This document shows positions 8,850-59,565 of a stretch of DNA of 64,000 bases, piece after piece (position 1 is the first letter of the stretch; each line of letters opens with the position of its first letter). The DNA lies in NCBI GenBank assembly GCA_021773195.1, contig JAJFKN010000020.1, positions 7,570 to 71,569 on the forward strand, written 5' to 3'. Source of the stretch: Gammaproteobacteria bacterium (GTDB taxonomy: Bacteria > Pseudomonadota > Gammaproteobacteria > JAKBBU01). The notes below the pieces were generated by a model. The model was not told the DNA's origin. It was given only the letters and a program-made list of their open reading frames with translations, and did not search any database. A program made the translations under genes and the position numbers.

Positions 8850-9395
8850 ATGTCTCGAGTAAATAAAAGCCAATATGCCATCCTAGGCTTGCTGAGCAAA
8901 CGCCCCATGTCGGGCTATGATATGAAACGCTTATTGGATCGTATGTCAGGATTTTATTGGTCTGAAAGTAATGCCCAGCTTTATCCTGTTTTAAAAAAAT
9001 TAGCCCAGGAAAACAAAGTGACTTCGGCATTAGACCCAGCCAGTGGTGCGCGTAATCGGATTATTTATACCATTACGAATGCGGGATTGGATTTTTTAAA
9101 AGAATGGTTATTACAACCCGTGGACAGAGCTTGTTACCGAGAAGAAATGATTTTAAAAGTGAGTTTAGGCCACAACATTAATAAGAAAGAATTAATGCGG
9201 CATTTAAAAGATTACAGTGATGATTTGCAAGCTCAAAAAAAGCAGCGGGATAAAGTTCAGCGACACATTGAAACGGACCATGTGGGCCGCGATGACCAAT
9301 TGTATTTGATGATGACCTATGATTTTTCGGAGAAAGTTATTGATGCCAAATTAGCTTGGTGCGAAGAAACATTGAAAAAGCTAGAAACCGCCTAA
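8850..9395 (+). CDS. PadR-family transcriptional regulator
   Basis: Winged-helix PadR signature YAILGLLSKRPMSGYDMKRLL...NAQLYPVLKKLAQEN. Start placed at the ATG at 8850 (RBS AAGGAAA). ORF track begins at 8769. Confidence 0.75.
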   Translation: MSRVNKSQYAILGLLSKRPMSGYDMKRLLDRMSGFYWSESNAQLYPVLKKLAQENKVTSALDPASGARNRIIYTITNAGLDFLKEWLLQPVDRACYREEMILKVSLGHNINKKELMRHLKDYSDDLQAQKKQRDKVQRHIETDHVGRDDQLYLMMTYDFSEKVIDAKLAWCEETLKKLETA

Positions 9396-9535
9396 CTCCA
9401 TAAAATCGTCGAATTTCAGGGAGTGCAACTCCACGAAATTAGCTGATTTTGGGGCATTAAGCATAACTTAACTGATTTTTAATTGAAGGATAATAACCTA
9501 TTGATGTAGGTTAGTGATATGACTAGTCAAAGAAA

Positions 9536-10555
9536 TTACATAGAAATAGTATCTTTCTTAAACTTAGCTATGCGCCATAAAAGCACAGGATGTGCTTGTA
9601 TCGAGCTGACAAGATGATCGTCATTCATAAATAATTCAGGCTCTATGCCTTTACCATTCTTTATTGATTGAATAAAAGCTCGTTCACTTGTTTCAAAAGG
9701 TAACAATGTATTAAAACCATGTCGAACATTAGTAATGACATTAGTTATCCAGTCTTCATTGGAAGCAAAGCCATCATAATAATTGTTTTTCATCACTGGA
9801 ATTAATTTATGTTTTAAATCAGTATGGTCCACTGTGATATCATTCAAAGTGATGTTTAACATATCTTTCTTAGAGCACATCGCAGCGTAGGGAACAAAAA
9901 TAGAGCGAAGTTTCTTCTTGCTGATTTTATTATATTGAAATAATTCATGGGCATCGAAAAAATCCCTTCCAGTTTGGCGTTCTAACAACGCTGTAAGCTT
10001 TCCGGCAGCTAATTCGTGAATATCAAGAACTGGAAGATTGTTTACTTGTTTGTTTGCGAAAGTAACACTGTTTCTGTGCTCAATTGGTAATAAAGGAATG
10101 CGATACATGAAGTTGAGATCTATTTCAAGGTTGCCTTGATTACCTAGCACGCTTGGGTAACGCCAAACCATTTTCCCTCCAGCATGCTCTTTAGGGTGCC
10201 GGATTAAGTTTAGTCCCATGCGCTCAAGTAGATTTTTTATCCTGTTTTCAACCTCAGGGCGCTCTTCTAACATAGTATTCCGATCAACTGCACCTATATA
10301 ATTGAAATCTGCATCAACAGACAACCTTGGCAAATTGAAATGAAATAAATTAAGCGCAGTCCCACCTTTTAGTGCTAACTTGCTAGATAAAAAACTATCT
10401 TCGGCGACTGCATTTAGTAATTCCATGAGCCAAGCAACTTTCTCAATAATTTCCTGGCGATAACCTGATGCCTGTTTTTCTCTTGTTAGACTTTCTCTAG
10501 ATAGGATCATTATATGGTTCCTCCCAAGATTTATTAAGAATAAATTCGGGGACAA
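9536..10555 (-). CDS. AbiEii/DUF1814 nucleotidyltransferase toxin (type IV TA)
   Basis: Motifs LKGGTALNLF and RLSVDADF are characteristic of AbiEii. It lies immediately downstream of, and overlapping, an AbiEi-like gene. Alternative start MILSRE at 10510. Confidence 0.65.
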   Translation of the reverse strand: MSPNLFLINLGRNHIMILSRESLTREKQASGYRQEIIEKVAWLMELLNAVAEDSFLSSKLALKGGTALNLFHFNLPRLSVDADFNYIGAVDRNTMLEERPEVENRIKNLLERMGLNLIRHPKEHAGGKMVWRYPSVLGNQGNLEIDLNFMYRIPLLPIEHRNSVTFANKQVNNLPVLDIHELAAGKLTALLERQTGRDFFDAHELFQYNKISKKKLRSIFVPYAAMCSKKDMLNITLNDITVDHTDLKHKLIPVMKNNYYDGFASNEDWITNVITNVRHGFNTLLPFETSERAFIQSIKNGKGIEPELFMNDDHLVSSIQAHPVLLWRIAKFKKDTISM

Positions 10556-11318
10556 TTAGGTTCCAGTGCTTTAGGTTTTTTACAGCGCCTTTGTAGTGTT
10601 TGTCCATGTAATGACACATTTTAGGGCGATGTTGCATTAATTTAGATAGATGACTTTTTTTCACATCAAACTGCTCTTTATGTTGCTCTAGAAAAAATCC
10701 TAGTTTCGCTATTGTAGTTGCATTACCTAGCCGTAAACAATAAGACATTAGCCGTTCAATATCTAAAAAATGTATGGACTCAAAGGAGCGCCATATTTCT
10801 TCCCAGCCATCACATAATTCTGGTCGATGCAGGGCATCTACCAAAGTGCGCTCAATGGTTGCTACTTGGATGCCCATGCCCATTCGATCATGAATTTTAG
10901 TTTCTATAAATATATCTTCTGGTTTTAATGCTGCAGGATGAGCTAACTGTTGGTACTGTCCATATTTACAGGTGAATTTGCCAATTCGAACATCAGAGTT
11001 AAAGTAAATGATTTGACTAACGGAATAAGCTAGCCCATGAAATTCCATGGCGGTGTGATGGCTAATAACAGCATCACACGTCATGTGCGCTGCGATCGAT
11101 AGGTGATCATTTTCTACGTGGCTGGAGGTGATATAATCGTTAGTTACCAGGTAGTACCCACGACGGATACGGGCCAGATGTTTTTTTGCTAAGTGGTATT
11201 GCAAGGCAGCTTTAAGGGTATTACGGTTAAAGTCACCGAAAGATCGCAAATAGGCGACCAGTTCTTCATGGTGGAACAGCGGATGTTTTTTAAAAAAAGC
11301 CTCAAAATTCATCGTCAT
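10497..11318 (-). CDS. AbiEi-family antitoxin / transcriptional regulator
   Basis: N-terminal wHTH (HEELVAYL...KAALQYHLAKKHLARIRRGYYLV) typical of AbiEi. Genetically coupled to the AbiEii gene. Confidence 0.6.
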   Translation of the reverse strand: MTMNFEAFFKKHPLFHHEELVAYLRSFGDFNRNTLKAALQYHLAKKHLARIRRGYYLVTNDYITSSHVENDHLSIAAHMTCDAVISHHTAMEFHGLAYSVSQIIYFNSDVRIGKFTCKYGQYQQLAHPAALKPEDIFIETKIHDRMGMGIQVATIERTLVDALHRPELCDGWEEIWRSFESIHFLDIERLMSYCLRLGNATTIAKLGFFLEQHKEQFDVKKSHLSKLMQHRPKMCHYMDKHYKGAVKNLKHWNLIVPEFILNKSWEEPYNDPI

Positions 11319-11325
11319 TTTATCT

Positions 11326-11366
11326 ATATGTGAGTAACTACTAATTATATTAGTAGTTACTCACAT
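11326..11366. promoter_or_regulatory. 41-bp perfect palindrome (CATGTGAGTAACTACTAAT-ata-ATTAGTAGTTACTCACATG) upstream of abiEi; candidate autoregulatory operator
   Basis: 19-bp perfect inverted arms read directly. Located 8-48 bp upstream of the AbiEi start codon. Confidence 0.5.
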
Positions 11367-11435
11367 GAAAATCAAACATATTTTGATGGTTATGTAAGCA
11401 GCTACTATTAAATTTAGTATTTACCGGCATTTTGA

Positions 11436-12797
11436 TCAAATAGCCTGAAGCGTTACTTTTAGTCCGAGAACTAAAGCAAAAAGAAAAGACAGCCCAGCTA
11501 AGACCAGCGTTACATGCATTCCTGCAACGAATTGGTGGGCTGTGCTAAGGATGGCGCCGAATAGGGCCACACCCAGTAAGCTGCCCATTTGGCGGCAGGT
11601 AGTGAAAATACCCGATGCCATTCCAGCACGGTTTTCTGGCAGTGAATGAATGGCTATCATGGTGGCTGCAGGCATGGTGAAAGCAATACCGAATCCCGCT
11701 GCCGCTAAAGGAATGACTAGCCAAAGGTAGTCAGGGCCTTGAGCGCCCACTATCAGCAAACTGAAAAAGCCCGCAGCGCCAATAATGAGTCCAATAAGTA
11801 ACGGCTTTTTGGGCCCCTTTTTACTCGCCACCCGTCCCGATAGAAAAGAAGATAGCGCAATCAATGCCACCATAGGGAATACGGCCATACCTGTTTGTAA
11901 CACACTGAAGCCACGAATCTGCTGGAAGTAAAGAGGTATCACAAATAATTCACCATACATACCGGCATTAATGCAAAGGCCGATGATGATCGCCACAACA
12001 AAATTTTTATTTTTAAAGAAAGACAGAGGAACCATAGGATGTGGAGCACGCTTCTCAACCAAGATAAAGACCATGAGACTCAAGATGAAAAGCGAAACAG
12101 CCAATAAAATAGGCCAGGAATACCAGGCATAATTAGCCAATTCAATGAGAGCAAAAGCCAGGCTCGCCATCATCAGTATCACGCAAGTTTGGCCACCCAA
12201 ATCAAAACCTGACGATGCTTGTTTTGCAGTGTTAGGAATTAATCGGTGAATCAGAAAAATTGTGATGATGGCCAGGGGAATATTCACAAAGAAGATCGCT
12301 GGCCAGCTGAACTTCGCCGTTAATACAGCACCTAAAACCGGGCCAGCACCGGCTGCAATACCACCTATGCCGCCCCAAATGCCAATGGCTTTAGCCCGTT
12401 TAATAGGGTCTTGATAGAGGGCATTGAGTAATGCCAAAGAAGCCGGAACGAGCAATGCTGCCGTTGCGCCCTGTAGCAAGCGAAAAGCAATCAAGAACTG
12501 CACCGTAGTAGATAAGCCACATAAGAGTGACGTAATAGCAAAACCCATTAAGCCACAAAGAAAGATTTTTTTAGCGCCCCATTGATCCGCTAAGTGACCA
12601 GAAAAGATAAGCAGTGCAGCAAAGGTCATGGTGTAGCCTGCTACCACCCATTGCAGGCCAGAAATGTTTGTATGTAAGGCTTTGGCCATGGTAGGCAATG
12701 CCACATTGATGATGGTGGCATCCATGATTACCATGAAAAAACCTAAACAAATGGCTAGCAGAGCAAGAGGTTGTTTTCTCGCCGTAGTTAGGTTCAT
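11436..12797 (-). CDS. MFS multidrug efflux transporter, DHA2 (EmrB/QacA, 14-TM) type
   Basis: 453 aa with 14 hydrophobic segments. Translationally abuts the higA stop at 12797. Confidence 0.7.
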   Translation of the reverse strand: MNLTTARKQPLALLAICLGFFMVIMDATIINVALPTMAKALHTNISGLQWVVAGYTMTFAALLIFSGHLADQWGAKKIFLCGLMGFAITSLLCGLSTTVQFLIAFRLLQGATAALLVPASLALLNALYQDPIKRAKAIGIWGGIGGIAAGAGPVLGAVLTAKFSWPAIFFVNIPLAIITIFLIHRLIPNTAKQASSGFDLGGQTCVILMMASLAFALIELANYAWYSWPILLAVSLFILSLMVFILVEKRAPHPMVPLSFFKNKNFVVAIIIGLCINAGMYGELFVIPLYFQQIRGFSVLQTGMAVFPMVALIALSSFLSGRVASKKGPKKPLLIGLIIGAAGFFSLLIVGAQGPDYLWLVIPLAAAGFGIAFTMPAATMIAIHSLPENRAGMASGIFTTCRQMGSLLGVALFGAILSTAHQFVAGMHVTLVLAGLSFLFALVLGLKVTLQAI

Positions 12798-13093
12798 TAA
12801 GCCACCTTAGGTAATTTGAGTGGTTTAAGCTTCAAGCGCTTTCTCAATTTTTCTGCTCGTGCTAGATCATACATGCATTGCATATTCATCCACATTTCAC
12901 TGCTGGTTTTCAGTACGATAGAAAGACGCACGGCCATTTCAGGACTTATACCACTTTTGCCATTAATCAGTTTAGACAATGTCACGCGCCCTACTCCTAG
13001 GCATTTGGCAGCTTCCGTTACCGTTAGGGAAGTGTTATCAATGAGGGAGCGTTTCACAAGTTCACCAGGATGAGGTGGGTTATGCATTGACAT
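12797..13093 (-). CDS. higA: HigA antitoxin (XRE-type HTH)
   Basis: HPGELVKRSLID...LTVTEAAKCLGVGRVTLSKLINGKSGISPEMAVRLSIVL is the HigA/VapI antidote pattern. Directly downstream of higB. Confidence 0.8.
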   Translation of the reverse strand: MSMHNPPHPGELVKRSLIDNTSLTVTEAAKCLGVGRVTLSKLINGKSGISPEMAVRLSIVLKTSSEMWMNMQCMYDLARAEKLRKRLKLKPLKLPKVA

Positions 13094-13104
13094 TATAATG
13101 GCTC

Positions 13105-13383
13105 CTAATGGTAGTCAAAGATATTGACATTCATTGCATCGTTACGTTCAAACTGGAAAACTAAACGCCAATTTTTATTTATGGTCACAGCAAAATAGCC
13201 CTTTAGATTTCCTTTCAGTGAATGGAAGTCATTGCCCGGCGTATTCATATCTTCAGGTCGGGTGGCATTCGCCAGTTGAAACAATAATAGGCGAATCGAG
13301 CTCGTATGTTTCGCTTGAATGCCTGCTGTACTTCCATAGTAGTAAAATTGTTTTAAGCCCTTATGTTTCCAGGTCTTAATCAT
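13105..13383 (-). CDS. higB: HigB toxin (RelE/ParE superfamily, plasmid-maintenance killer)
   Basis: MIKTWKHKGL... start and ...LKGNLKGYFAVTINKNWRLVF core typical of HigB. ORF track starts 30 nt upstream at 13413. Confidence 0.8.
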   Translation of the reverse strand: MIKTWKHKGLKQFYYYGSTAGIQAKHTSSIRLLLFQLANATRPEDMNTPGNDFHSLKGNLKGYFAVTINKNWRLVFQFERNDAMNVNIFDYH

Positions 13384-13745
13384 AATTGTATCCTGTATAC
13401 ATACGGTCGTCAATCCGTGGCTGCTTGAGTTTATAGAAACAGTTTAAGCTCATGATAACAGGAAACAATAAGGCACTTTGTAATCCAGGCGATTCATAAC
13501 GGTTTTAGTACAATCTAGGATAATGCGGAGGTTAAGTTTGCGAAATGTGTTCACAAAAATTTGTCCTGGCAACCTAATACGTAAATTTACCGACTATTTC
13601 CTGGGGAATCATCAGCGTAAAATAGGTAAAAGTTGCAGTGGCTATCAATTCTCAAAATAGTACTTTGAGAACCAGTGATAGCATTCTGATTTTGTAGTAA
13701 TATGCTTAACAACCGTCCAATCATAGCCATAGTTTAATATGATCA

Positions 13746-13759
13746 TATTCTGTTTGCAT
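13746..13759. promoter_or_regulatory. perfect 14-bp palindrome AATATGATCATATT about 28 bp upstream of a TATAAT box preceding the 518-aa membrane protein gene
   Basis: Read directly. TATAAT at 13787-13792, gene start at 13834. Confidence 0.35.
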
Positions 13760-13833
13760 TTGTGTCTTCCAGGCCTTATAATGCGCTCAAAGTCTGGCCA
13801 TTCGCATAAGAAAAACAAAGGAATCAACAGGTT

Positions 13834-15390
13834 ATGCATCAATCTAATAAACCGAATTTTCCGCTTTCGAAGTTGCCATCAGGTCGTACCATCAATAAAC
13901 TTGCTATTGGGGCAGCCTTTGGAACTGGGGTTTCCTCGGCCAGTAAGTTTTACAGTAATGCGGACTATGTGGCCGATAGTCTTTTTGAACTTAATGCCTT
14001 CGGTAATTTAATCTTAACATTTTCTGTTGTTTTCTTTTCAATCCTTATCCTCTATACCTATACAACGAAATACTTCCCTGCCTTAGAGAAATACGGCCAT
14101 GGATATAAAGAAGGTAAAGACATACAAAGAATGTCAGAACATCAACGAGAGGCCTTTCAGATAGGAAAAGTGAATACAGAAGGTCTGCGAATTGAGCAAT
14201 GTCCTGAAAATGATAATCCTAGTTGCTGTGTATGGCTAGGACATAAGTACGACAAAAGTTTCGAATTATTAACCTCTCTTGGTAAGGGATTAGTGGGGGC
14301 GGGTGTTTTAGGATTAAAATTTGGGGAGTTAACAGGAAGTAAGGTCGTTGGCGATTGGGTGGCAGGTTTTGGTTTGCCCATTACTGCGGTGAATGTGGCT
14401 GCTACATTGAATAAAATTGGTGATAATGGTGGCCAAATAACCCAACGTGATGATTCTAGCTATGGCCCTGTAACCTATGCGAGCATTGCACGTGTTGCTG
14501 CATTTAATGGTTTAACGGGTGGAGCCATTACGCTTTATATTTGTCTTTCGGCGGGGTCAAAAAATCTTACCAACATAGAAACTTTTTTAGAGTACTTTTT
14601 GCCATCTATCTATACCAATACTTACACTCGTTGGCCTACATTGATTGCAAGTTGGATAGCATCCTATTGGGTTTTTCAAAGAACCATATTCAGTCAGGGG
14701 CCTGCTATTGATGCTGTGCTTGATAAAATCGTCGCTAAATTTGCATGGATGTTGGCTGCTATTAAATTAATAGGGGCCTTTTCAATTAAATACTTATGTA
14801 CTTGTGGTAAGAATGGGTCTCTTGAACAAGTATGTAGTGACATTGATGATTTGAACGTGGTGCCAACCAGTGATGTTATTAAGGAAACCTCAATCTTTCG
14901 TGTGGTGAGACGTTATATCACAGGGAAAAATGGTGATTATAATGATGATAGTTGGATTGAAAATATTTATCATGGTTTAGCCACGCGTTGCCAATGTTTA
15001 GAAAGTTGGTGGCCTGACTTTAATGATAGTCTGACAACAGCCATACGTGCTATTGTCGGTACCGCCACGTCATTTTATTTGATGGTGAGTCTGACGGCTG
15101 GATTTAGGCCCGCTTGGAATTTGATTGAAGATCTATCTTTCTGGACAGCAGTGGCAATAGGTTCCCTTTTTATATTATTTTCATCAGCTTTTGGAAACTT
15201 TGTTTACCTAAGGCAAGGAAAAAATAAAAATAATAAGCTCATCGGTTTGGTTAAAAATGGTGAGAGTTTTCGTTTATTCAGTCCCAATGAAGGTGTGGCG
15301 CGTGATCTTCGAGTAAACGATGGCGAGGAGAGCAACAGTTTATTACCTGGTGCTGATACCCATACTGTCTATGGAGCTATGGTCCAATAG
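13834..15390 (+). CDS. hypothetical polytopic membrane protein (possible secreted effector/vacuolar membrane protein)
   Basis: 518 aa with multiple hydrophobic segments and no recognisable domain. AT-rich codons by eye. C-terminal Glu-rich stretch DGEESNSLLPG. Flanked by TA modules. Confidence 0.45.
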   Translation: MHQSNKPNFPLSKLPSGRTINKLAIGAAFGTGVSSASKFYSNADYVADSLFELNAFGNLILTFSVVFFSILILYTYTTKYFPALEKYGHGYKEGKDIQRMSEHQREAFQIGKVNTEGLRIEQCPENDNPSCCVWLGHKYDKSFELLTSLGKGLVGAGVLGLKFGELTGSKVVGDWVAGFGLPITAVNVAATLNKIGDNGGQITQRDDSSYGPVTYASIARVAAFNGLTGGAITLYICLSAGSKNLTNIETFLEYFLPSIYTNTYTRWPTLIASWIASYWVFQRTIFSQGPAIDAVLDKIVAKFAWMLAAIKLIGAFSIKYLCTCGKNGSLEQVCSDIDDLNVVPTSDVIKETSIFRVVRRYITGKNGDYNDDSWIENIYHGLATRCQCLESWWPDFNDSLTTAIRAIVGTATSFYLMVSLTAGFRPAWNLIEDLSFWTAVAIGSLFILFSSAFGNFVYLRQGKNKNNKLIGLVKNGESFRLFSPNEGVARDLRVNDGEESNSLLPGADTHTVYGAMVQ

Positions 15391-15613
15391 AGTGTTGTCC
15401 AAAAAAGACTTGAAAAAAGCTCACAACATGCCTCTTCCTTTTCCTGCATACTAACTCCTCCACCTAGGAGGTTGTTATGCCGTCATTATTCAGAAAAATT
15501 TTCTACTTATCCGATACCTTTATCATAAGCCCTATGGCTTACAAACTATTGATGTTTTGTGAGAAACGTCCATGTAAGCTAGGTATTCCCATCTTACACT
15601 TGCCTTGTAGTCA

Positions 15614-15931
15614 ATGTTAGACTACAATAAGGGTGTAGGTGGCATTGTGGAAATATATACCGTTAAGCTGTCTACAAAGGCGCAGTGGGGCTTGAGGCGT
15701 GTTCCTAAACACATTGTGGATAAGCTCATTGACTGGGTTGAAAGTGTAGCGGAGTATGGACTATCTGAAGTGCGTAAGGTGCCAGGCTATCACGATGAAC
15801 CCTTGCGCGGTAAACGTAAGGGGCAACGTTCCATTCGGCTCAGTAGGGCTTATCGAGCAATCTATATGACTGATGAGTCAGAGGATATTCAATTCCTGGA
15901 AGTGATCGAGGTAAACAAACATGAGTATTAA
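15614..15931 (+). CDS. HigB-like/RelE-ParE-family toxin (Gp49-like)
   Basis: GKRKGQRSIRLSRAYRAIY...EVIEVNKHEY motif block. Same block is in the higB at 49031. 11-bp overlap with downstream XRE gene. Confidence 0.6.
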   Translation: MLDYNKGVGGIVEIYTVKLSTKAQWGLRRVPKHIVDKLIDWVESVAEYGLSEVRKVPGYHDEPLRGKRKGQRSIRLSRAYRAIYMTDESEDIQFLEVIEVNKHEY

Positions 15932-16241
15932 CAAAACTACTCGCAAGACATTGGACTTTCTCGAAGATCTAGCTGGCGGGCCTTTGACCTTCGGGCGATT
16001 CCTATGGGCAATACGCGAGGGTGAAGCATTAACGCAAGTTGAGTTTGCCGGAATACTTGATATTTCACGCCAGAATCTTTGTCACATTGAACGGGGGCGT
16101 CGTGCTGTGAGTCCCAGAATGGCTGCTGATTTTGCTGAAAGACTGGGTTATAGCCAGCAACGCTTTGTGCAGTTAGCCATTCAAGATATCTTGGATCGTG
16201 ATGGTCTGCAGTATATTGTTAGACTCAAAGAAGCAGCTTAG
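15921..16241 (+). CDS. XRE-family HTH antitoxin (HigA-like)
   Basis: HTH LTQVEFAGILDISRQNLCHIERGRRAVS. Toxin-upstream arrangement typical of HigBA. Confidence 0.6.
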   Translation: MSINKTTRKTLDFLEDLAGGPLTFGRFLWAIREGEALTQVEFAGILDISRQNLCHIERGRRAVSPRMAADFAERLGYSQQRFVQLAIQDILDRDGLQYIVRLKEAA

Positions 16242-16258
16242 CGAATTGTCAGCAGACC

Positions 16259-18328
16259 CTAGTCTTGTAACAAAGAAATATCCGCAGCTTCTAAGAATAA
16301 CCCACGCAATTGTTTCAATAAGACTAATCGGTTATTACGCAGGGCTTCATCGTCTACCATGACCATGACATCATCGAAGAATTGATCCACGGGTTCACGT
16401 AGCTCGGCTAATTGAGTCAAGGCTTCATTGTATTTACCCGCTTGCAATAGCGGCATGACCTGTTGGCTTTGCTGTGCAATGGCCTTGGCTAAGTTAATTT
16501 CTGCAGTTTCTTGCAACAAATTATCTTGTAACTTATCAGGCAACTTAACCGTGCCCTGTTTCGATAAAATATTACTAACGCGTTTATTAGCCGCAGCGAG
16601 AGATTTCGCTGCAGGGATTTCGCGAAAGGCAATGACGGCTTCCATGCGTTGATGGAAGTCCAAAGGCCTTGCAGGTTGTTTGGCTACGACGGCGGCGAAG
16701 ACATCAGCTTTTACATTGCGTTCTAAATACCAAGCCTTTAAACGTTCAATAATGAAATCATAACAATCTTGCAAGACATTTTGATTTTCCAGCGTAATGT
16801 CATAGGCCTCTTTCGCCTGTTGCAATAAACGCTTTAAATCCAAATCCAATTGTTTTTCTAACATCATGCGTAAAATACCCAATGCGGCGCGGCGTAAGGC
16901 AAAGGGATCTTTATCGCCTGTGGGCGCTTGGTTGATGCCAAAGATACCCACAAGGGTATCCATGCGGTCAGCAATGGCTACGCTCAAGGCTTCTTTGGTT
17001 TCAGGTAATGCATCACCGGAAAAGCGTGGTTGGTAATGTTGGCCAATGGCATGGGCAATGGTTTCGTTTTCATTATCATTCAAAGCATAATAACGTCCCA
17101 TGATGCCCTGCAGTTCGGGGAACTCCCCTACCATATCGGTCATCAAATCGGTTTTAGCTAACAGCCCTGCTCGTTCTGCGCTTTGCGCATCGCCCTTGAT
17201 TTCTTGGGCGACGGTTTTAGCCAATGCCGAAATGCGTTGGGCTTTGTCATGCAGTGTGCCTAGTTTTGCCTGGAATATCACATGCTTTAAGCCATCTATG
17301 CGGCTTTCCAGAGAATGCTTCTGGTCTATATTATAGAAAAATTCGGCATCGCTAAAGCGTGCCGTCATGACTTTCTGGTTACCTTGGATAATAAGAGAAG
17401 GATCTTTGATTTCTAAATTAGACACCGTAATAAAGTAAGGTAATAATTCACCCTGCGTGTCTTCGATATAAAAACATTTTTGGTGATCACGCATCACAGC
17501 AATCAAGGCTTCTTTGGGCACTTGCAAAAAGCGCGCATCAAAGGGCACTAATAAAGGCGCGGGCCACTCTACAATACCTGTCACTTCTTCCAGCAATGCG
17601 GGCTCAATGATTATTTGGCCTTGGACTTTTTTTACCGCGCGCTGACTTAAAGTTTGAATGTGTTGTTTGCGCATGTCAAAGTCTGCAATGACATGGGCTT
17701 TAAATAATGTATCTTCATAATCATCGGCTTTTTTTAATTTAATGGCGTCAGGGGCGTGAAAGCGATGGCCGTAGGTAATATTGCTTGAACTTAAGCCCAG
17801 AATTTCCGTATCAATGACGGTTTTGCCATGCATCAATAAAATCCAATGCACAGGACGTACGAATTCAGCATTACCATTGCCCCAGCGCATGCGTTTGGCG
17901 ATGGGTAATTGTTTGATGGCTTGTTGTAGGATATCTGGCAACAATTCATTTAAGGTCTTACCCGCCTGTTCACTGCGATGCATGAGCCAAGTGCCTTTAT
18001 CGGTTTCTACTTTTTCTAGTTCTTTTACGCTGCAGCCGCAGGATTTGGCAAAGCCTTCACAGGCCTTAGTGGGATTACCATCATTATCAAAGGCAGCCTG
18101 CAATGCAGGGCCTTTACGTTCAATATTTTGTGTGGGTTGCTTGGCCTCTAAATCTTTTACCATGAGAGCAATGCGTCTAGGCGTGGCAAAAGCTTTGATG
18201 TCGGTGAAATTCAAGCCGGCTTTTTTTAGGCTATCTTCAACATTATTTTTTAAGGCGCTGGATAGGGGCAATAAAGACTTAGACGGTAATTCTTCTGTGC
18301 CTATTTCAAAAAGTAAAGTATCACTCAT
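16259..18328 (-). CDS. glyS: glycine--tRNA ligase beta subunit
   Basis: 689 aa, immediately downstream of and overlapping glyQ. Conserved GlyS blocks (e.g. [15 protein letters not shown], anticodon-binding C-terminal domain). Confidence 0.95.
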
Positions 18329-19224
18329 GCTTGTTCCTCCCGCAACATGGGGAAGCCCAAAGCTTCACGAGCCTCAAAATAGGCTTGGGCAATGCCCCGT
18401 GACAGCGTGCGCACGCGTAAAATATAGCGTTGTCGTTCCGTCACGGAAATAGCATGACGCGCATCTAACAAGTTAAACATGTGTGAGGCTTTTAATACCA
18501 TGTCATAGGCAGGCAACGCTAATTTAGCCGCTAATAAACGTTGGCATTCTTTTTCACAGGTATCGAATTGAGAAAATAACCAAGCCACATCGGCTTGTTC
18601 AAAATTATATGCTGACATTTCCACTTCATTTTGTTTAAACACATCACCATAGGTCATGGTGCCAAGAGGGCCTTGTGTCCACACTAAATCCATCATGTGA
18701 TCCACGCCTTGCAGATACATGGCAATGCGCTCGAGGCCATAAGTTAATTCGCCGGTGACGGGTTTGCAGCTCAAGCCACCCACCTGTTGAAAATAAGTAA
18801 ATTGCGTGATTTCCATGCCGTTTTGCCACACTTCCCAACCTAAACCCCAAGCGCCTAAGGTGGGAGATTCCCAATTGTCTTCCACAAAACGAATGTCTTC
18901 TTTTAAAGGATCAATGCCTAAGGCTTTGAGTGATCCCAAATACAAATCTTGCAAGTTTGCGGGTGAAGGTTTGATGGCCACTTGGAATTGATAATAATGT
19001 TGGGTGCGATTGGGGTTTTCACCGTAGCGGCCGTCCGTGGGACGACGGCAAGGTTGGACAAAGGCTGTAGCCCATGGCTCAGGGCCAATGGCGCGTAAAA
19101 AAGTGGCGGGATGGAAGGTCCCCGCGCCTACTTCCATATCCAAAGGTTGCAAGATGGCACAGCCTTGTTTCGCCCAGTATTGTTGCAAGGTTAAGATGAT
19201 GTCTTGAAAGGTTATTTTAGTCAT
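18325..19224 (-). CDS. glyQ: glycine--tRNA ligase alpha subunit
   Basis: 299 aa. [29 protein letters not shown] and [18 protein letters not shown] are highly conserved GlyQ blocks. Confidence 0.95.
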
Positions 19225-49030: not shown

Positions 49031-49327
49031 GTGTTATGCTTGGAAGCAATACGAGGTTTTAAATGTGCTGAAACAGGCTTGATTTGCGAAGGCACAGTTT
49101 CCCGTCACCTGCCGCGCGCGATACAGCAAGTGGCCCGGCGAAAACTGCGTATGCTGAATAATGCTAACTGTTTGCAAGATCTTAGAATTCCACCCAATAA
49201 TCGTTTCGAGGCTCTCAGAGGCAAGCGTAAGGGCCAATACAGCATTCGTATTAATAAACAATGGCGGCTATGCTTCATTTGGAATAATGGGCTGGCCTAT
49301 GAAGTGGAAATGGTTGGTTACCACTAA
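49031..49327 (+). CDS. higB: HigB toxin (RelE/ParE superfamily)
   Basis: LRGKRKGQYSIRINKQWRLCF block. GTG start. Followed by higA after 17 bp. Confidence 0.75.
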   Translation: MLCLEAIRGFKCAETGLICEGTVSRHLPRAIQQVARRKLRMLNNANCLQDLRIPPNNRFEALRGKRKGQYSIRINKQWRLCFIWNNGLAYEVEMVGYH

Positions 49328-49344
49328 TAATCTGCGAGGTAGCT

Positions 49345-49653
49345 GTGATGACAAAGTTAAAAAATGTTCATCCAGGTGAAATATTATTGGAAGAATTCCT
49401 TTTACCCATGGATATTAGCCAGAATAGGCTAGCTCGCGATATGTTTGTGCCGCCCCGTCGTATTAACGAAATTGTTCACGCCATGCGGGCGGTGACGGCA
49501 GATACGGACCTTAGATTGTCTCGGGCATTGGGCGCTTCCGAAGGGTTTTGGCTGGGATTGCAAAATGATTATGATTTGGAAAATAAAAAGCATGAAATTA
49601 GTAAGCAATTAAATTGCATCGGCAATTTGGCACTTAAAGATGACTTCGAATGA
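49345..49653 (+). CDS. higA: HigA antitoxin (XRE HTH)
   Basis: HPGEILLEEFL...ISQNRLARDMFVPPRRINEIVHAMRAVTADTDLRLSRAL is the HigA/VapI antidote pattern. Confidence 0.75.
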   Translation: MMTKLKNVHPGEILLEEFLLPMDISQNRLARDMFVPPRRINEIVHAMRAVTADTDLRLSRALGASEGFWLGLQNDYDLENKKHEISKQLNCIGNLALKDDFE

Positions 49654-56109: not shown

Positions 56110-56979
56110 ATGAAAAATATTGATATCCTACAAACCTTTCTTTTCGAGAACACGCAAATTCGAGGCCAACTGGTTAAAATCAGTACCAGCTACCAGGAAG
56201 TATTGTCTCGCCATAGCTATCCTGAGCCTGTGGAATTGCTATTGGGTGAAACTCTTTGTGCCGCAACTTTGTTGAGCAATGCCATAAAGCAGGGTTCAGT
56301 TATTATGCAGGTGGAAGGTGATGGCCCTTTGAGCTTATTATTGGCCCATTGTGATCATGAACGAAAAATTCGTGGGCTGGCCAAATGGGACGATGAAATT
56401 CAGGGTTTGGATTTGCAGGCGAATATGGGCACCGCTCATTTGGGCATTACTGTTGACCCTGGCGTGGGCAAAGAACGTTATCAAGGTGTCGTGACCGTTA
56501 AACATGCTAAATTATCCCAAGCCATCGAAGAATATTTTACACAGTCTGAGCAGATAGCAACGAGAGCTTGGTTTACGGCCAACGGTACTCATGCTGCGGG
56601 TTTGTTATTACAACGTCTACCCAGCAGTGAATCCAAAGACGATCAGTATTGGCAGCATATCACGACTCTTGCTAGCACCATCACCAGTGAAGAGTTGTTA
56701 GGCTTAGATAATAAAACCCTATTGCATCGTTTATTCCACGAAGAAGATGTGAGATTATTTGAAGAGCAAGATGTTACATTCTATTGCAGTTGTTCTGCTG
56801 AACGTATGGAGCAAGCCTTAAAAATGTTAGACAAGGAAGAGTTGGTGGACCTTGCTAATCGCAAAGAAGTAGATGTGACCTGTGAGTTTTGCAATAAAAC
56901 CTATACCCTTGGGCAAACAGAATTGACCCGTATTGTCGCCGAAATCGATAGTTCTGCGGGGTCGTCTAGTATTCATTAA
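56110..56979 (+). CDS. hslO: redox-regulated chaperone Hsp33
   Basis: C-terminal zinc centre CSCS...CEFC (FYCSCSAERM...VTCEFCNKTY). 289 aa. Confidence 0.9.
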   Translation: MKNIDILQTFLFENTQIRGQLVKISTSYQEVLSRHSYPEPVELLLGETLCAATLLSNAIKQGSVIMQVEGDGPLSLLLAHCDHERKIRGLAKWDDEIQGLDLQANMGTAHLGITVDPGVGKERYQGVVTVKHAKLSQAIEEYFTQSEQIATRAWFTANGTHAAGLLLQRLPSSESKDDQYWQHITTLASTITSEELLGLDNKTLLHRLFHEEDVRLFEEQDVTFYCSCSAERMEQALKMLDKEELVDLANRKEVDVTCEFCNKTYTLGQTELTRIVAEIDSSAGSSSIH

Positions 56980-56989
56980 GGATGAAAAA

Positions 56990-58270
56990 ATGTTAGGACG
57001 ATTTTTCGCTAGAAATTTTATAAAAAAGAAACGCACATCACAAAAAAGCCAAGATGTACGTCGAGTTAATTTTTTATTATCCCATTATTCGCAAAAGATT
57101 GGTCGTAAGCGCAAACGCCCAATTTTTCGTGGCGAATCATTTCATACAAAAACTCGCTATAAACCCAAGGGCGTGAACGTTATCGGTAATGCTCTGCGTA
57201 TGTCGGGTTCATCCAAAGTGACGCGCGATGTGGCTATTGCTTTAGACAAATGTGATGTTAATACGGTTTTGTATAATTGGCGCGGAAAGAAGAAAGAAAA
57301 GCCCTCTGCCGATGTGGCGCATTTGCTCAGTGAAAAGGCACCTTACTGTGCGAATGTATTTGCTATCAATCATATTTTACAATTGGATACGTTGTATATT
57401 AACTCGGCTCCATTATTTCGTGGTCGTTACAATATTGGTTATGGCGCTTGGGAAGTTACCAAGTTTTACAAAAACCGTCTTTATTGCATGAATATTTACG
57501 ATGAACTGTGGGCCATTAGTCGCTATAACCAGCAGGTATTATCAGAGAGATCCATTTTGCCTGTAGTGCACATTCCAGAAGTGGTGGATTTTGAATTAGC
57601 ACGGACTTATAAGCGAGAAGATTTCGGGTTGCCCAAAGATGCCTTCATCTTTTGTTATATGTACGACCAGGGTAGTTACGATAGAAAAAACCCTTTGGCT
57701 TTAGTGCAAGCTTTTAAACGGGCATTTACGCCAGAAGATAATGCGTTTCTTTTATTAAAAACCTATGTGGCCGATGAGAGTGATCCGGGCATTAAAATTA
57801 TTCAGGAGGCCATAAAAGGTCGCAATGATATTCGTATTATGGGTTCAAAATTGCCTGAAGCAGATGTCTATGGTTTGTTGAGTGTTATTGATTGTTATGC
57901 TTCATTGCATCGCGCTGAGGGGTTTGGGCGACCTCCAGCGGAAGCCATGAAGCTCGGTAAACCCGTTGTTATAACAGGTTTTGGTGGCCCCTTAGATTAC
58001 GCCAATGAAAAAACAGCCTGTTTGGTGGACTTTAAAATGATTCCCGTAGAAAACCGCCTACAAACATTCATTGATTATGAAGAAGGTGCACAATATGCCG
58101 ATGCCGATGTTGACCATGCTGTAGAGTGTTTGCGCAAGGTGGCCAGTGATCATGATTATGCAAAAAGCATTGCAGCTCATGGCAAACAGTGGGTAGAGAC
58201 TCATCATAGTTACCAAGCGGCAGGTGATATTATGTGTGAGCGATTGCGTTTATTGGGGTTGTTAGATTAA
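56990..58270 (+). CDS. putative glycosyltransferase (GT-B, Glycos_transf_1-like C-terminal domain), paralogue 1
   Basis: C-terminal HRAEGFGRPPAEAMKLGKPVVITGFGG block typical of GT4/GT1 enzymes. Basic N-terminus. Start moved to the ATG at 56990 after the hslO stop. Confidence 0.55.
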   Translation: MLGRFFARNFIKKKRTSQKSQDVRRVNFLLSHYSQKIGRKRKRPIFRGESFHTKTRYKPKGVNVIGNALRMSGSSKVTRDVAIALDKCDVNTVLYNWRGKKKEKPSADVAHLLSEKAPYCANVFAINHILQLDTLYINSAPLFRGRYNIGYGAWEVTKFYKNRLYCMNIYDELWAISRYNQQVLSERSILPVVHIPEVVDFELARTYKREDFGLPKDAFIFCYMYDQGSYDRKNPLALVQAFKRAFTPEDNAFLLLKTYVADESDPGIKIIQEAIKGRNDIRIMGSKLPEADVYGLLSVIDCYASLHRAEGFGRPPAEAMKLGKPVVITGFGGPLDYANEKTACLVDFKMIPVENRLQTFIDYEEGAQYADADVDHAVECLRKVASDHDYAKSIAAHGKQWVETHHSYQAAGDIMCERLRLLGLLD

Positions 58271-58272
58271 TC

Positions 58273-59565
58273 ATGTTATTGCGTTTTTTTGCCAAAAATT
58301 ATCAGAAATTCATTCGAGGGAAAAAGGGACTTGGCGTCAGCCCTCTGCAACAACGGGCTAGCGACTATATTACCTATAGCAGCACACGAAATGCCGGTAA
58401 AAAACGCGGTTTCGTGCGTTTTGATGGTCAATCTTTTCAGACGGGGATTAAGGATTATAAGCCCGGCTGTAATATTATTGGTAGTGCATTAAGAGTCTCA
58501 GGTATATCTAAAGGGCTACGGGAAATGGCGGTGGCCATGGACAAAACCCAGATACCTTTTTCCACTTATAATTATCGACCTAAGAAAAATGATTTGCCTG
58601 CATCAGAATTGATTGGCCCAATGCAAAAAACATTGCCCTATAAAGCTAATATTCTCGTATTAAACGATAATATTCTCGTGCGTGAAGCGTTAGAACCCAA
58701 GGACAAATTTAAAAAACATTATAATATCGTTTACCCCGCTTGGGAGTATACGAAGCTTGCCTTTGACCGTATGTATTCTACAAATATCGCCCATGAATTT
58801 TGGACCATCAGCCGATTCAATCAAGAAGTTTATGCTCAGCAATCGGTGCAGCCAGTGATTCACATGCCTGAAGTGATAGAGCCCCGATTAACTCGAAGCT
58901 ATAGCCGCCGAGAATTTGGTCTGCCTGATTCAGCTTTTATTTTTTGTTTTATGTTCGATCACGAAGCTCATGATCGAAAGAACCCCATGGGTTTGATTCG
59001 AGCATTTCAAAAAGCCTTTACACCGACAGATAATGCTTATCTTGTATTAAAAACCCATAAAGGTAGCAAAGACGACCCTATTTTAAAACAATTACACGAA
59101 GCCATTAAACCTAACCAAAATATCCAGATTATATCTTGTATGTTACCCGATGAAGGGGTTTATGGCCTATTGAGCGTTATCGATTGCTATGTTTCATTGC
59201 ATCGCTCAGAAGGTTTTGGACGTACTTTGGTGGAAGCCATGAAGTTCGGAAAACCGCTTATAGCTACCAATTTTTCAGGTTCGACGGATTATGTCAATTC
59301 TAAGATCGCATGTCCGGTAGATTATAAGTTAATTGATTGTGATGACCCCGTCACCAATGCCATGCATGCTGTTGGCATGCAATATGCTGACCCCGATATA
59401 GATCATGCTATTCATTGCATGAAGAAAGTAGCTGCGGATAGCCATTATGCCAAAACCATTGCAGCAGCAGGCCAAGCCTTTGTGGACAAGCAATATAGCT
59501 ATGAGAATGTGGGGCGAATCATTCGTGAACGTTTAGAGTTGCTCGGTCTTATCCCTGAGCTTTAG
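58273..59565 (+). CDS. putative glycosyltransferase (GT-B), paralogue 2
   Basis: Collinear with paralogue 1 along its length (e.g. HRSEGFGRTLVEAMKFGKPLIATNFSG, LLSVIDCY, ADPDIDHA). 2-bp spacing after paralogue 1. Confidence 0.55.
   Translation: MLLRFFAKNYQKFIRGKKGLGVSPLQQRASDYITYSSTRNAGKKRGFVRFDGQSFQTGIKDYKPGCNIIGSALRVSGISKGLREMAVAMDKTQIPFSTYNYRPKKNDLPASELIGPMQKTLPYKANILVLNDNILVREALEPKDKFKKHYNIVYPAWEYTKLAFDRMYSTNIAHEFWTISRFNQEVYAQQSVQPVIHMPEVIEPRLTRSYSRREFGLPDSAFIFCFMFDHEAHDRKNPMGLIRAFQKAFTPTDNAYLVLKTHKGSKDDPILKQLHEAIKPNQNIQIISCMLPDEGVYGLLSVIDCYVSLHRSEGFGRTLVEAMKFGKPLIATNFSGSTDYVNSKIACPVDYKLIDCDDPVTNAMHAVGMQYADPDIDHAIHCMKKVAADSHYAKTIAAAGQAFVDKQYSYENVGRIIRERLELLGLIPEL

What the first reader, a model, noticed from the sequence alone, without database searches (positions are those of the whole stretch)
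9536..16241. Toxin-antitoxin-rich accessory pocket interleaved with efflux pumps
Between gmhB and glyS lie, in order:
- An MFS (Bcr/CflA-type) pump with a divergent PadR regulator.
- An AbiEi/AbiEii pair with a 41-bp perfect palindrome in its promoter.
- A DHA2 MFS pump whose start codon overlaps the stop of a HigB-HigA pair (ATGA junction at 12797), implying co-transcription of a TA module with a drug-efflux pump.
- A 518-aa unknown membrane protein.
- A second HigB-like/XRE pair.

Together with the AbiE cassette at 40 kb and higBA at 49 kb this makes five TA modules in 64 kb. This would be unusual for an obligate intracellular Coxiella-type genome. The higBA-MFS coupling is an uncommon arrangement.
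Basis: partly seen in the sequence, partly recalled or inferred. Interest (0 to 1): 0.55.

Follow-up and report, generated by a model that had tools for sequence, protein, structure and literature searches.

The report
Toxin-antitoxin and pump islet splitting glyS-gmhB
An 8.9-kb patchwork of three toxin-antitoxin modules, two drug-efflux pumps and one orphan membrane protein has been inserted into a normally tight housekeeping gene cluster of an uncultured gammaproteobacterium. Every part belongs to a known family, so it is a tidy but largely ordinary accessory islet.

Summary
- AbiEi/AbiEii (9536-11318)
- HigB/HigA (12797-13383)
- a RelE-family/XRE pair (15647-16241)
- a second AbiE pair at 40 kb and a second HigBA pair at 49 kb

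Corrections:
- The palindrome is 39 bp (18+3+18), not 41 bp.
- The higA/MFS junction is TAATG with a 1-nt overlap, not ATGA.
- The true unit is 7344-16258, an insertion between glyS and gmhB. These two genes lie 8-36 bp apart in 36 of 80 other gammaproteobacterial loci.

The genome is not Coxiella burnetii. Every protein tested is a singleton at 90% identity, and the nearest GlyS is 56% identical (a Legionellales MAG). Lifestyle is unknown.

The higBA-MFS junction is lineage-specific. None of the 80 closest HigA loci carries an MFS gene, and the two closest MFS homologues have a divergent LysR regulator instead. Co-transcription is plausible but unproven.

One unexpected point: 4 of 7 sampled homologues of this DHA2 pump also sit next to unrelated TA modules (BrnA, AbiE, HipBA, HigBA). 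The 518-aa protein has no homologue among 1.84 billion representatives.

Verdict: new members of known kinds; modest interest.

The parts
7344..16258 (.). Whole accessory islet (8.9 kb) inserted between gmhB and glyS of the otherwise contiguous glyQ-glyS-gmhB-plsC cluster
   Evidence: in 36 of 80 gammaproteobacterial loci gmhB begins 8-36 bp after the end of the glyS match. GC is 41.3% against 43.4% for the window. Codon adaptation of the islet genes is lower: 0.54-0.68 against 0.65-0.77 for core genes.
6804..7343 (-). gmhB (left flank), followed by plsC at 6051-6791
   Evidence: NF006506, 235 bits against a cut-off of 178. plsC: TIGR00530, 1e-22, 80 bits, below that model's cut-off of 102.95.
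7499..8716 (-). Bcr/CflA-family MFS efflux pump
   Evidence: TIGR00710, 264 bits against a cut-off of 200.9; PF07690, 3e-49.
8751..8826 (.). 19-nt inverted repeat (95% complementary, 38-nt spacer) in the pump/PadR intergenic region; candidate PadR operator
   Evidence: repeat I3. The operator role is an inference.
8835..9395 (+). PadR-family regulator, divergent from the Bcr/CflA pump
   Evidence: PF03551, 6e-13, and PF10400, 3e-9. ATG at 8835.
9536..10510 (-). AbiEii nucleotidyltransferase toxin (type IV TA / abortive infection)
   Evidence: PF08843, 4e-33; PADLOC PDLC02305, 2e-96. GGTAL and DADF motifs are present.
10497..11318 (-). AbiEi antitoxin/autorepressor; overlaps abiEii by 14 nt
   Evidence: PADLOC PDLC02270, 4.9e-83, full length. 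Pfam AbiEi_1 hit is only sub-threshold.
11328..11366 (.). 18+3+18 perfect-arm palindrome with a TATAAT at its centre, 9 nt upstream of the abiEi ATG; candidate AbiEi operator
   Evidence: A promoter-like TTTTCA-16-TATAAT site overlaps it.
11436..12797 (-). DHA2 (Mmr-like) MFS efflux pump; its ATG shares one base with the higA stop codon
   Evidence: TIGR00711, 251.9 bits against 230.2. Junction is TAATG with AAGGTGG 4 nt upstream.
12797..13093 (-). HigA antitoxin (HTH)
   Evidence: TIGR02607, 93 bits against 47.7; PDB 2icp, 1.9e-17.
13105..13383 (-). HigB ribosome-dependent mRNA endonuclease toxin
   Evidence: PF05015, 72 bits against 27. End-to-end alignment with the HigB chain of PDB 4mct, including the C-terminal DYH.
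13834..15390 (+). 518-aa orphan protein with about three strongly hydrophobic segments
   Evidence: No homologue at E<=0.001 among 1.84 billion representatives. No Pfam, NCBIfam or PADLOC hit. Hydropathy. AF2 model has pLDDT 38.
15605..15627 (.). TTGTAGTC-N7-GACTACAA inverted repeat between a -35-like TTGCCT and a -10-like TACAAT; candidate operator of the RelE/XRE module
15647..15931 (+). RelE/StbE-family toxin (94 aa from the GTG start)
   Evidence: TIGR02385, 28.6 bits against 27.9. 1070 homologues, mostly 94 aa, several named RelE/StbE or HigB-1.
15921..16241 (+). XRE-type HTH antitoxin; overlaps the toxin gene by 11 nt
   Evidence: HTH_31/HTH_19, 6e-9. The same 94-aa + 105/106-aa pair with an 11-nt overlap occurs in L166 and L167.
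16259..18328 (-). glyS (right flank), preceded by glyQ at 18325-19224
40023..41677 (-). Second AbiEi/AbiEii pair, outside the islet
   Evidence: PF08843, 2e-39, and PF09407, 3e-30; PADLOC, 1e-103 and 5e-79. Only 20-26% identical to the first pair.
49031..49653 (+). Second HigB/HigA pair, outside the islet
   Evidence: PF05015, 2e-19; TIGR02607, 104 bits against 47.7. 38% (HigB) and 23% (HigA) identical to the first pair.

Best explanation
The region is a mosaic accessory islet (7344-16258). It was built by several independent acquisitions at one site: the junction between glyS and gmhB in the conserved glyQ-glyS-gmhB-plsC cluster. The host is an uncultured, deep-branching (possibly Legionellales-related) gammaproteobacterium.

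Its modules work as their families do:
1. A PadR repressor controls a divergent Bcr/CflA efflux pump.
2. An AbiE type IV toxin-antitoxin / abortive-infection pair. AbiEi most likely represses its own promoter by binding the 18-3-18 palindrome that covers the -10 element.
3. A HigBA type II module: a ribosome-dependent mRNA endonuclease plus an HTH antitoxin.
4. An orphan membrane protein.
5. A RelE-family/XRE type II module with its own operator-bearing promoter.

The DHA2 pump has lost the divergent LysR regulator seen beside its two closest homologues. It now starts one base inside the higA stop codon. It is therefore most likely transcribed from the higBA promoter and translationally coupled to higA. 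Its expression would then follow HigA autorepression and rise when HigA is degraded under stress.

This coupling looks like an accident of insertion and deletion rather than a conserved functional design.

Shown: gene identities, the insertion site, the junction and palindrome anatomy, and the lack of conservation. Inferred: operator function, co-transcription, stress induction, and toxicity of each toxin.
For: - Family assignments.
- Insertion into a conserved cluster: (glyS to gmhB gap of 8-36 bp in 36 of 80 loci, against 8.9 kb here).
- Foreign character: lower GC, GC3 and codon adaptation of most islet genes.
- Independent acquisition: paralogous TA pairs share only 20-38% identity.
- Junction: 1-nt overlap with a Shine-Dalgarno-like AAGGTGG; no promoter-like or terminator-like site inside higA.
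- The junction is reproduced at 100% identity in a separate Logan assembly of run SRR15505513.
- Not conserved: none of the 80 closest HigA loci (54-64% identical, about 70 with HigB directly upstream) has an MFS gene. The closest pump homologues (58-59%) have a divergent LysR.
- AbiEi autoregulation through promoter inverted repeats is established for the family (PMC3985639, PMC7319586).
- A foreign higBA placed upstream of a resident membrane-protein gene, bringing it under the higBA promoter, is documented in Caulobacter (PMC13384398).
Against: - No convincing higBA promoter or HigA operator was found upstream of higB. The best promoter-like match ends 1 nt before the ATG, so it cannot serve that start codon.
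- Promoter-like matches in the whole region are at chance level: 25 found against 22 +/- 5 in shuffles. Neither the presence nor the absence of an internal pump promoter can therefore be read from the sequence.
- 4 of 7 sampled homologues of this pump lie next to other TA modules. This argues against pure accident, at least for the pump/TA neighbourhood in general.
- No mobile-element hallmarks flank the islet: no integrase, no tRNA or other Rfam family, and no flanking direct repeats. The mechanism of insertion is unknown.
Confidence: 0.7

Rival explanations
1. TA modules and this DHA2 pump clade form a recurrent, selected partnership. Either the TA promoter supplies stress-inducible expression of the pump, or the TA module protects the dispensable pump gene from deletion (addiction-type stabilisation of an accessory cassette).
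For: Five of eight pump genes of this clade, including the window, have a TA module directly adjacent. The TA families all differ:
- HigBA upstream (window)
- BrnA upstream (L169)
- AbiEi/AbiEii upstream (L170)
- HipBA upstream (L172)
- HigBA downstream (L168)

Excluding the window, 4 of 7 is unlikely by my binomial estimate: P about 0.03 even at this window's own high TA density, and about 2e-4 at 5%. TA systems are known to stabilise resistance-carrying elements (PMC11062541).
Against: - The sample is only seven.
- The TA families, spacing (1 nt to 344 bp) and side differ, which fits co-residence in variable regions better than a fixed unit.
- L169 and L171 share downstream synteny but differ upstream. 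This points to a variable spot next to the pump rather than a linked cassette.
- The two closest homologues have LysR and no TA module.
- The TA density of those genomes is unknown.
Confidence: 0.15
2. The islet is primarily an anti-phage defence island (AbiE plus type II TA modules acting by abortive infection). The pumps and the orphan protein are bystanders.
For: Both AbiE pairs match PADLOC defence models full length. AbiE is an experimentally shown abortive-infection system (PMC3985639). Clustering of such modules in islands is typical (established knowledge).
Against: HigBA, the RelE/XRE toxin and the 518-aa protein hit no PADLOC model; the XRE protein gives only weak generic HTH hits. 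No restriction-modification, CRISPR or other dedicated defence genes were seen in the islet. Nothing shows that the host is exposed to phage.
Confidence: 0.1
3. The DHA2 pump is expressed from its own promoter inside higA or higB, so the overlap has no regulatory consequence. The TA modules are selfish or decaying passengers.
For: Internal promoters inside toxin genes are known for toxin-first TA modules (PMC10098735, discussion). No higBA promoter could be identified here. A neighbouring example (L170) carries a truncated AbiEii.
Against: All five modules in the window have full-length genes with intact family motifs. No promoter-like site was found on the minus strand within 12797-13383, other than the match that abuts the higB ATG. 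Stop/start overlap plus a Shine-Dalgarno sequence is the usual signature of an operon.
Confidence: 0.05

Closest known systems
HigBA type II toxin-antitoxin system (Proteus vulgaris Rts1 HigBA; E. coli CFT073 HigA)
   Same: Toxin-first gene order and an 11-nt gap. HigB aligns end to end with the HigB chain of PDB 4mct, including the His in the HxLKG stretch and the C-terminal DYH. HigA matches TIGR02607 and PDB 2icp.
   Different: A 453-aa MFS pump gene starts inside the higA stop codon. None of the 80 closest HigA loci has this. No operator palindrome was recognised upstream of higB.
Caulobacter crescentus higBA-higX locus (PMC13384398)
   Same: A higBA module of probable foreign origin sits directly upstream of a resident membrane-protein gene, so that the higBA promoter can drive the downstream gene.
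   Different: There the third gene is a membrane-bound transcription factor 42 bp downstream, and the promoter is LexA-controlled. Here it is an efflux pump with a 1-nt overlap, and no regulation data exist.
AbiE type IV TA / abortive infection system (Streptococcus agalactiae, Lactococcus; PMC3985639, PMC7319586)
   Same: Bicistronic abiEi-abiEii with overlapping genes, a DUF1814 nucleotidyltransferase toxin, and an inverted repeat in the promoter.
   Different: There is a single long 18-3-18 palindrome centred on the -10 element, rather than the paired shorter inverted repeats described for S. agalactiae (the latter from PMC7319586's abstract and my own recollection). The Pfam AbiEi_4 N-terminal domain was not detected.
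Tripartite toxin-antitoxin-chaperone (TAC) HigBA modules (PMC5105189)
   Same: A third gene is co-oriented directly after a HigBA-type pair.
   Different: The third gene there is a SecB-like chaperone needed by the antitoxin. Here it is a 453-aa DHA2 transporter with no chaperone similarity.
DHA2 MFS pumps of the methylenomycin-resistance (Mmr)-like group with a divergent LysR regulator
   Same: TIGR00711 membership. The closest homologues (47-59% identical) are named this way by JGI.
   Different: The divergent LysR found beside the two closest homologues is absent, and no remnant is detectable.

Membership tests
HigBA type II TA | HigB-like RelE-fold toxin passing the family profile | tested here: met
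   PF05015, 72 bits against a cut-off of 27. PDB 4mct_B, 3e-17, aligned 1-92 to 2-93.
HigBA type II TA | HigA HTH antitoxin passing the family profile | tested here: met
   TIGR02607, 93.1 bits against 47.7. PDB 2icp, 1.9e-17.
HigBA type II TA | Toxin gene upstream of the antitoxin gene, closely spaced | tested here: met
   higB 13383-13105 then higA 13093-12797, with an 11-nt gap. The same layout occurs in about 70 of the 80 closest loci.
HigBA type II TA | Growth inhibition by the toxin, rescue by the antitoxin, and autorepression of the promoter | not testable with these tools
   No operator-like palindrome with arms of 6 nt or more was found upstream of higB.
AbiE type IV TA / Abi | DUF1814 nucleotidyltransferase toxin (AbiEii) | tested here: met
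   PF08843, 115.7 bits against 22.5. PADLOC, 2e-96.
AbiE type IV TA / Abi | AbiEi antitoxin encoded directly upstream in one operon | tested here: met
   PADLOC AbiEi PDLC02270, 4.9e-83 over 3-267 of 273 residues, with a 14-nt gene overlap. Pfam PF13338 was not hit and PF09407 is below its cut-off.
AbiE type IV TA / Abi | Inverted repeat(s) in the promoter for AbiEi autoregulation | tested here: met
   18+3+18 palindrome at 11328-11366, overlapping the TTTTCA-16-TATAAT site. Binding itself was not tested.
AbiE type IV TA / Abi | Protection against phage by abortive infection | not testable with these tools
   None.
RelE/StbE type II toxin with XRE antitoxin | Toxin passes the family profile | tested here: met
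   TIGR02385, 28.6 bits against a cut-off of 27.9, which is marginal. The Pfam HigB/ParE hits are below their cut-offs. PDB matches are weak only (E about 0.2).
RelE/StbE type II toxin with XRE antitoxin | Conserved pairing with an adjacent HTH gene | tested here: met
   The 94-aa + 105/106-aa HTH pair with an 11-nt overlap occurs in L166 and L167, in unrelated contexts.
DHA2 MFS efflux | Passes the TIGR00711 subfamily profile | tested here: met
   251.9 bits against 230.2.
DHA2 MFS efflux | 14 transmembrane segments | tested here: inconclusive
   A crude hydropathy scan gives overlapping segments that cannot be counted reliably. The protein, at 453 aa, is shorter than the 485-position profile.
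Bcr/CflA MFS efflux | Passes the TIGR00710 subfamily profile | tested here: met
   264.2 bits against 200.9.
Tripartite TAC (HigBA + SecB-like chaperone) | The third gene encodes a SecB-like chaperone | tested here: not met
   The third gene is an MFS transporter.
   GlyQ and nine other proteins are singleton clusters at 90% identity. The nearest GlyS is 56% identical, from a Legionellales MAG. Coxiella is not among the 80 best GlyQ loci.

The most novel reading that the evidence does not exclude
This clade of Mmr-like DHA2 pumps is preferentially partnered with toxin-antitoxin modules of any family. In 4 of 8 cases the TA module lies immediately upstream on the same strand. The antitoxin-repressed TA promoter would then act as a stress-released switch for efflux, or the TA module would guard the pump gene against deletion in genomes with a deletional bias. 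The window's 1-nt higA/pump overlap would be the most tightly fused example.
Probability: 0.15. Interest if true: 0.55.

Novelty: new member of a known kind. Interest (0 to 1): 0.3.

Why it matters
If the reading is right, the locus is a clear example of how accessory modules pile up at one junction inside a housekeeping cluster. It shows three consequences:
- The insertions cut gmhB-plsC off from glyQS.
- They left a drug pump behind a toxin-antitoxin promoter.
- The lineage has no close sequenced relative.

It gives a ready test case (a single RT-PCR) for transcriptional capture of a resident gene by an incoming higBA module, as recently described in Caulobacter. The recurrent pump/TA neighbourhood seen in a small sample would be worth a proper census. 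It could bear on how efflux genes are regulated or retained in host-associated gammaproteobacteria. None of the individual parts is new.

Tried and rejected
- **Homologues of the 518-aa protein.** The exhaustive phmmer search found none. Pfam, NCBIfam and PADLOC gave nothing, and there is no paralogue in the window.
- **Structure of the 518-aa protein.** The single-sequence AlphaFold model was unusable (mean pLDDT 38), so I ran no fold search.
- **A Dot/Icm-effector reading.** I considered it from the acidic, serine-rich C-terminal tail but did not pursue it. No secretion-system genes were seen and no test was available.
- **Remnant of the LysR regulator.** None was found beside the pump or anywhere in the window (tblastn, best E 0.68).
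- **Naming the organism.** Exact-protein look-ups of the 518-aa protein and the pump returned nothing. The HigA look-up gave only a 2.1-kb Logan contig.
- **More pump contexts.**
  - The viral-contig scan with a clade alignment gave no relatives.
  - Plasmid matches were 46% identical or less, so they are not the same clade.
- **Rfam.** No family was found in the whole window.
- **Promoter scan.** Hits are at chance level, so I did not use individual sites as evidence, except where they coincide with an inverted repeat.
- **Recent duplication of the TA pairs.** Rejected: identities are 20-38%.
- **Assembly chimera at the higA/pump junction.** Judged unlikely, because a separate Logan assembly reproduces it. 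That assembly may derive from the same reads.


Full report
**Anatomy**

From low to high coordinates:

| Feature | Coordinates (strand) | Key evidence |
|---|---|---|
| plsC | 6051-6791 (-) | TIGR00530, 1e-22, below its cut-off |
| gmhB | 6804-7343 (-) | NF006506, 235 bits vs 178 |
| Bcr/CflA MFS pump | 7499-8716 (-) | TIGR00710, 264 bits vs 200.9 |
| PadR regulator (divergent) | 8835-9395 (+) | PF03551, 6e-13 |
| AbiEii | 9536-10510 (-) | PF08843, 4e-33; PADLOC, 2e-96 |
| AbiEi | 10497-11318 (-) | PADLOC, 4.9e-83; Pfam sub-threshold only |
| DHA2 MFS pump | 11436-12797 (-) | TIGR00711, 252 bits vs 230 |
| HigA | 12797-13093 (-) | TIGR02607, 93 bits vs 47.7; PDB 2icp, 2e-17 |
| HigB | 13105-13383 (-) | PF05015, 72 bits vs 27 |
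| 518-aa ORF | 13834-15390 (+) | no family hit |
| RelE/StbE-family toxin | 15647-15931 (+) | TIGR02385, 28.6 bits vs 27.9 |
| XRE HTH protein | 15921-16241 (+) | HTH_31/HTH_19, 6e-9 |
| glyS | 16259-18328 (-) | convergent with the XRE gene |
| glyQ | 18325-19224 (-) | |

- HigB aligns end to end with the HigB chain of PDB 4mct, including the C-terminal DYH.
- The paralogous pairs share only 20-38% identity, so they are separate acquisitions and not duplications.

**Corrections of detail**

- The 'perfect 41-bp palindrome' is two perfect 18-nt arms around a 3-nt centre: 39 bp at 11328-11366.
  - In the sense of abiEi it reads ATGTGAGTAACTACTAAT-ATA-ATTAGTAGTTACTCACAT.
  - A TATAAT sits at its centre, a TTTTCA lies 16 nt upstream, and the abiEi ATG lies 9 nt downstream.
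- The higA/pump junction is GCT-TAA-TG. The higA stop is TAA, and its last A is the first base of the pump's ATG. That is a 1-nt overlap, with AAGGTGG 4 nt upstream.
- RelE2 most likely starts at GTG 15647.
  - Its homologues are mostly 94 aa.
  - An AGGTGG precedes that codon.
  - A -35-like TTGCCT and a -10-like TACAAT bracket an 8-N7-8 inverted repeat just upstream, at 15605-15627.

**What the region is**

In 36 of 80 glyQ loci from other gammaproteobacteria (Legionella, Methylophaga, many MAGs), gmhB begins 8-36 bp after the end of the glyS match. It is often followed by plsC. In the window these two genes are 8.9 kb apart.

- The islet has lower GC than the window (41.3% vs 43.4%).
- AbiE and the 518-aa gene have low GC3 (0.32-0.37).
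- Codon adaptation to the window's core genes is generally lower (0.54-0.68 vs 0.65-0.77).
- No integrase, tRNA or flanking direct repeat marks its ends.

One consequence is that gmhB-plsC are now cut off from glyQS and lie downstream of the PadR-controlled pump.

**The organism**

- All ten proteins looked up, including GlyQ, are singleton clusters at 90% identity, from one 91,189-bp NCBI contig.
- GlyQ is at best 75-80% identical to Legionella, Methylophaga and MAG sequences.
- GlyS is at best 56% identical, to a 'Legionellales bacterium' MAG, and then 51-55% to assorted Gammaproteobacteria.

This is not Coxiella burnetii. It has no close sequenced relative, and its lifestyle cannot be read from the window. 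The window does contain several features that may hint at a host-associated organism but prove nothing:
- a thaumatin-family protein
- a Fic protein
- several orphans

For comparison, C. burnetii is reported to have 11 TA systems in its whole genome (PMC10098735).

As a rough control, homologues of the window's TA families occur in only 3 of the 80 glyQ neighbourhoods (1.44 Mb). The window has five modules in 64 kb.

**The higBA-pump coupling**

- From the HigBA side it is unique. Among the 80 metagenomic loci with the closest HigA relatives (54-64% identical):
  - about 70 have HigB directly upstream
  - none has an MFS gene in the up to 3 kb of downstream sequence fetched (many contigs are shorter)
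  - 9 have any ORF of 60 aa or more starting within 40 bp after higA
- The conserved part of HigA ends near residue 92, so the last residues of the 98-aa protein may be a by-product of the fusion.
- From the pump side, the two closest homologues (58-59%) have a divergent LysR regulator. No remnant of one survives here.
- The junction is reproduced at 100% identity in a separate Logan assembly of run SRR15505513.
- The sequence is therefore consistent with one higB-higA-pump transcript and translational coupling.
  - I could not identify the higBA promoter or a HigA operator.
  - Promoter-like hits in the region are at chance frequency.
- The closest published parallel is Caulobacter, where a foreign higBA sits just upstream of the ancestral membrane regulator higX and its promoter can drive that gene (PMC13384398).

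**An unexpected pattern**

| Locus | Neighbour of the pump gene |
|---|---|
| L169 | BrnA antitoxin, 264 bp upstream, same strand |
| L170 (Legionellales MAG) | AbiEi plus a truncated AbiEii, 123 bp upstream |
| L172 | HipB-HipA, 148 bp upstream |
| L168 | HigBA pair related to the window's 49-kb pair, 344 bp downstream |
| L171 | two divergent HTH-S24 repressor-like genes |

- With the two LysR cases, 4 of 7 relatives (5 of 8 with the window) have a TA module next to the pump, each of a different family.
- L169 and L171 share the genes downstream of the pump but differ upstream.
- The simplest reading is that the pump lies beside a variable spot where mobile modules land. TA modules are what tends to persist there.
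- A selected TA-pump partnership is not excluded, but it rests on a very small sample.

**The orphan**

- The 518-aa ORF is far too long to be open by chance. My estimate for 518 stop-free codons at this composition is about 1e-14.
- It has three strongly hydrophobic segments.
- It has no detectable homologue among 1.84 billion cluster representatives.
- Its single-sequence structure model is uninformative.
- Its function is unknown. A lineage-specific membrane or secreted protein is the default guess.

**Verdict**

The parts are ordinary members of known families, assembled into an islet at a well-defined insertion site. The higBA-pump fusion is a plausible but unproven case of transcriptional capture with no sign of conservation. 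The recurring TA neighbourhood of this pump clade is the only lead that might repay further work.

Noticed in passing
window 4379-5722 (-): A 447-aa protein with an N-terminal hydrophobic segment matches the thaumatin family (PF00314, 2.4e-19, two stretches). To my knowledge this is a mainly eukaryotic family, which would suggest a horizontally acquired, eukaryote-like protein.
   Followed up: no
window 6051-7343 (-) and 7344-7498: The islet separates gmhB-plsC from glyQS. They now lie 155 bp downstream of the PadR-controlled Bcr/CflA pump on the same strand. Their transcription must come from that pump's promoter or from a new one in the 155-bp gap.
   Followed up: partly
L058 10839-14494 (Thiotrichales MAG): Another genome shows independent insertions in the same cluster: a 310-aa ORF between glyQ and glyS, and a HigB/HigA pair starting 55 bp after glyS.
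   Followed up: partly
L168, L169, L170, L172 (loci of pump homologues): Homologues of the DHA2 pump lie next to HigBA, BrnA, AbiE (with a truncated AbiEii of 139 aa) and HipBA modules respectively.
   Followed up: partly
window 41878-45021 (-): Two large orphans (375 aa, proline-rich; 645 aa) with no Pfam hit and low GC3 (0.33) sit directly beside the second AbiE pair. Together these look like a second accessory patch.
   Followed up: no
window 49031-49327 (+): The second HigB ends in GYH, whereas HigB1 and the HigB chain of PDB 4mct end in DYH. From memory, that Asp is part of the HigB active site, so this toxin may be attenuated.
   Followed up: no
window 23522-24856 (+), 35773-36684 (+), 45347-46657 (-): A Fic-domain protein (PF02661, 5e-7), an Rpn/YhgA-like nuclease or putative transposase (PF04754, 3e-29), and an AAA_14 + DUF4143 ATPase (5e-36 / 9e-23). 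These are further accessory-type genes scattered through the window.
   Followed up: no
window 56933-59565 (+): Two tandem group-1 glycosyltransferases of about 440 aa, each with a long N-terminal region that matches no family.
   Followed up: no
window 1-64000: No Rfam family, and hence no tRNA or riboswitch, reaches its gathering score anywhere in the 64 kb.
   Followed up: no
window 11426-11445: A short palindrome (GGCATTTTGATCAAATAGCC region) spans the stop codon of the DHA2 pump. There is no T-tract terminator between the pump and the abiE promoter, so read-through into abiE is possible.
   Followed up: no
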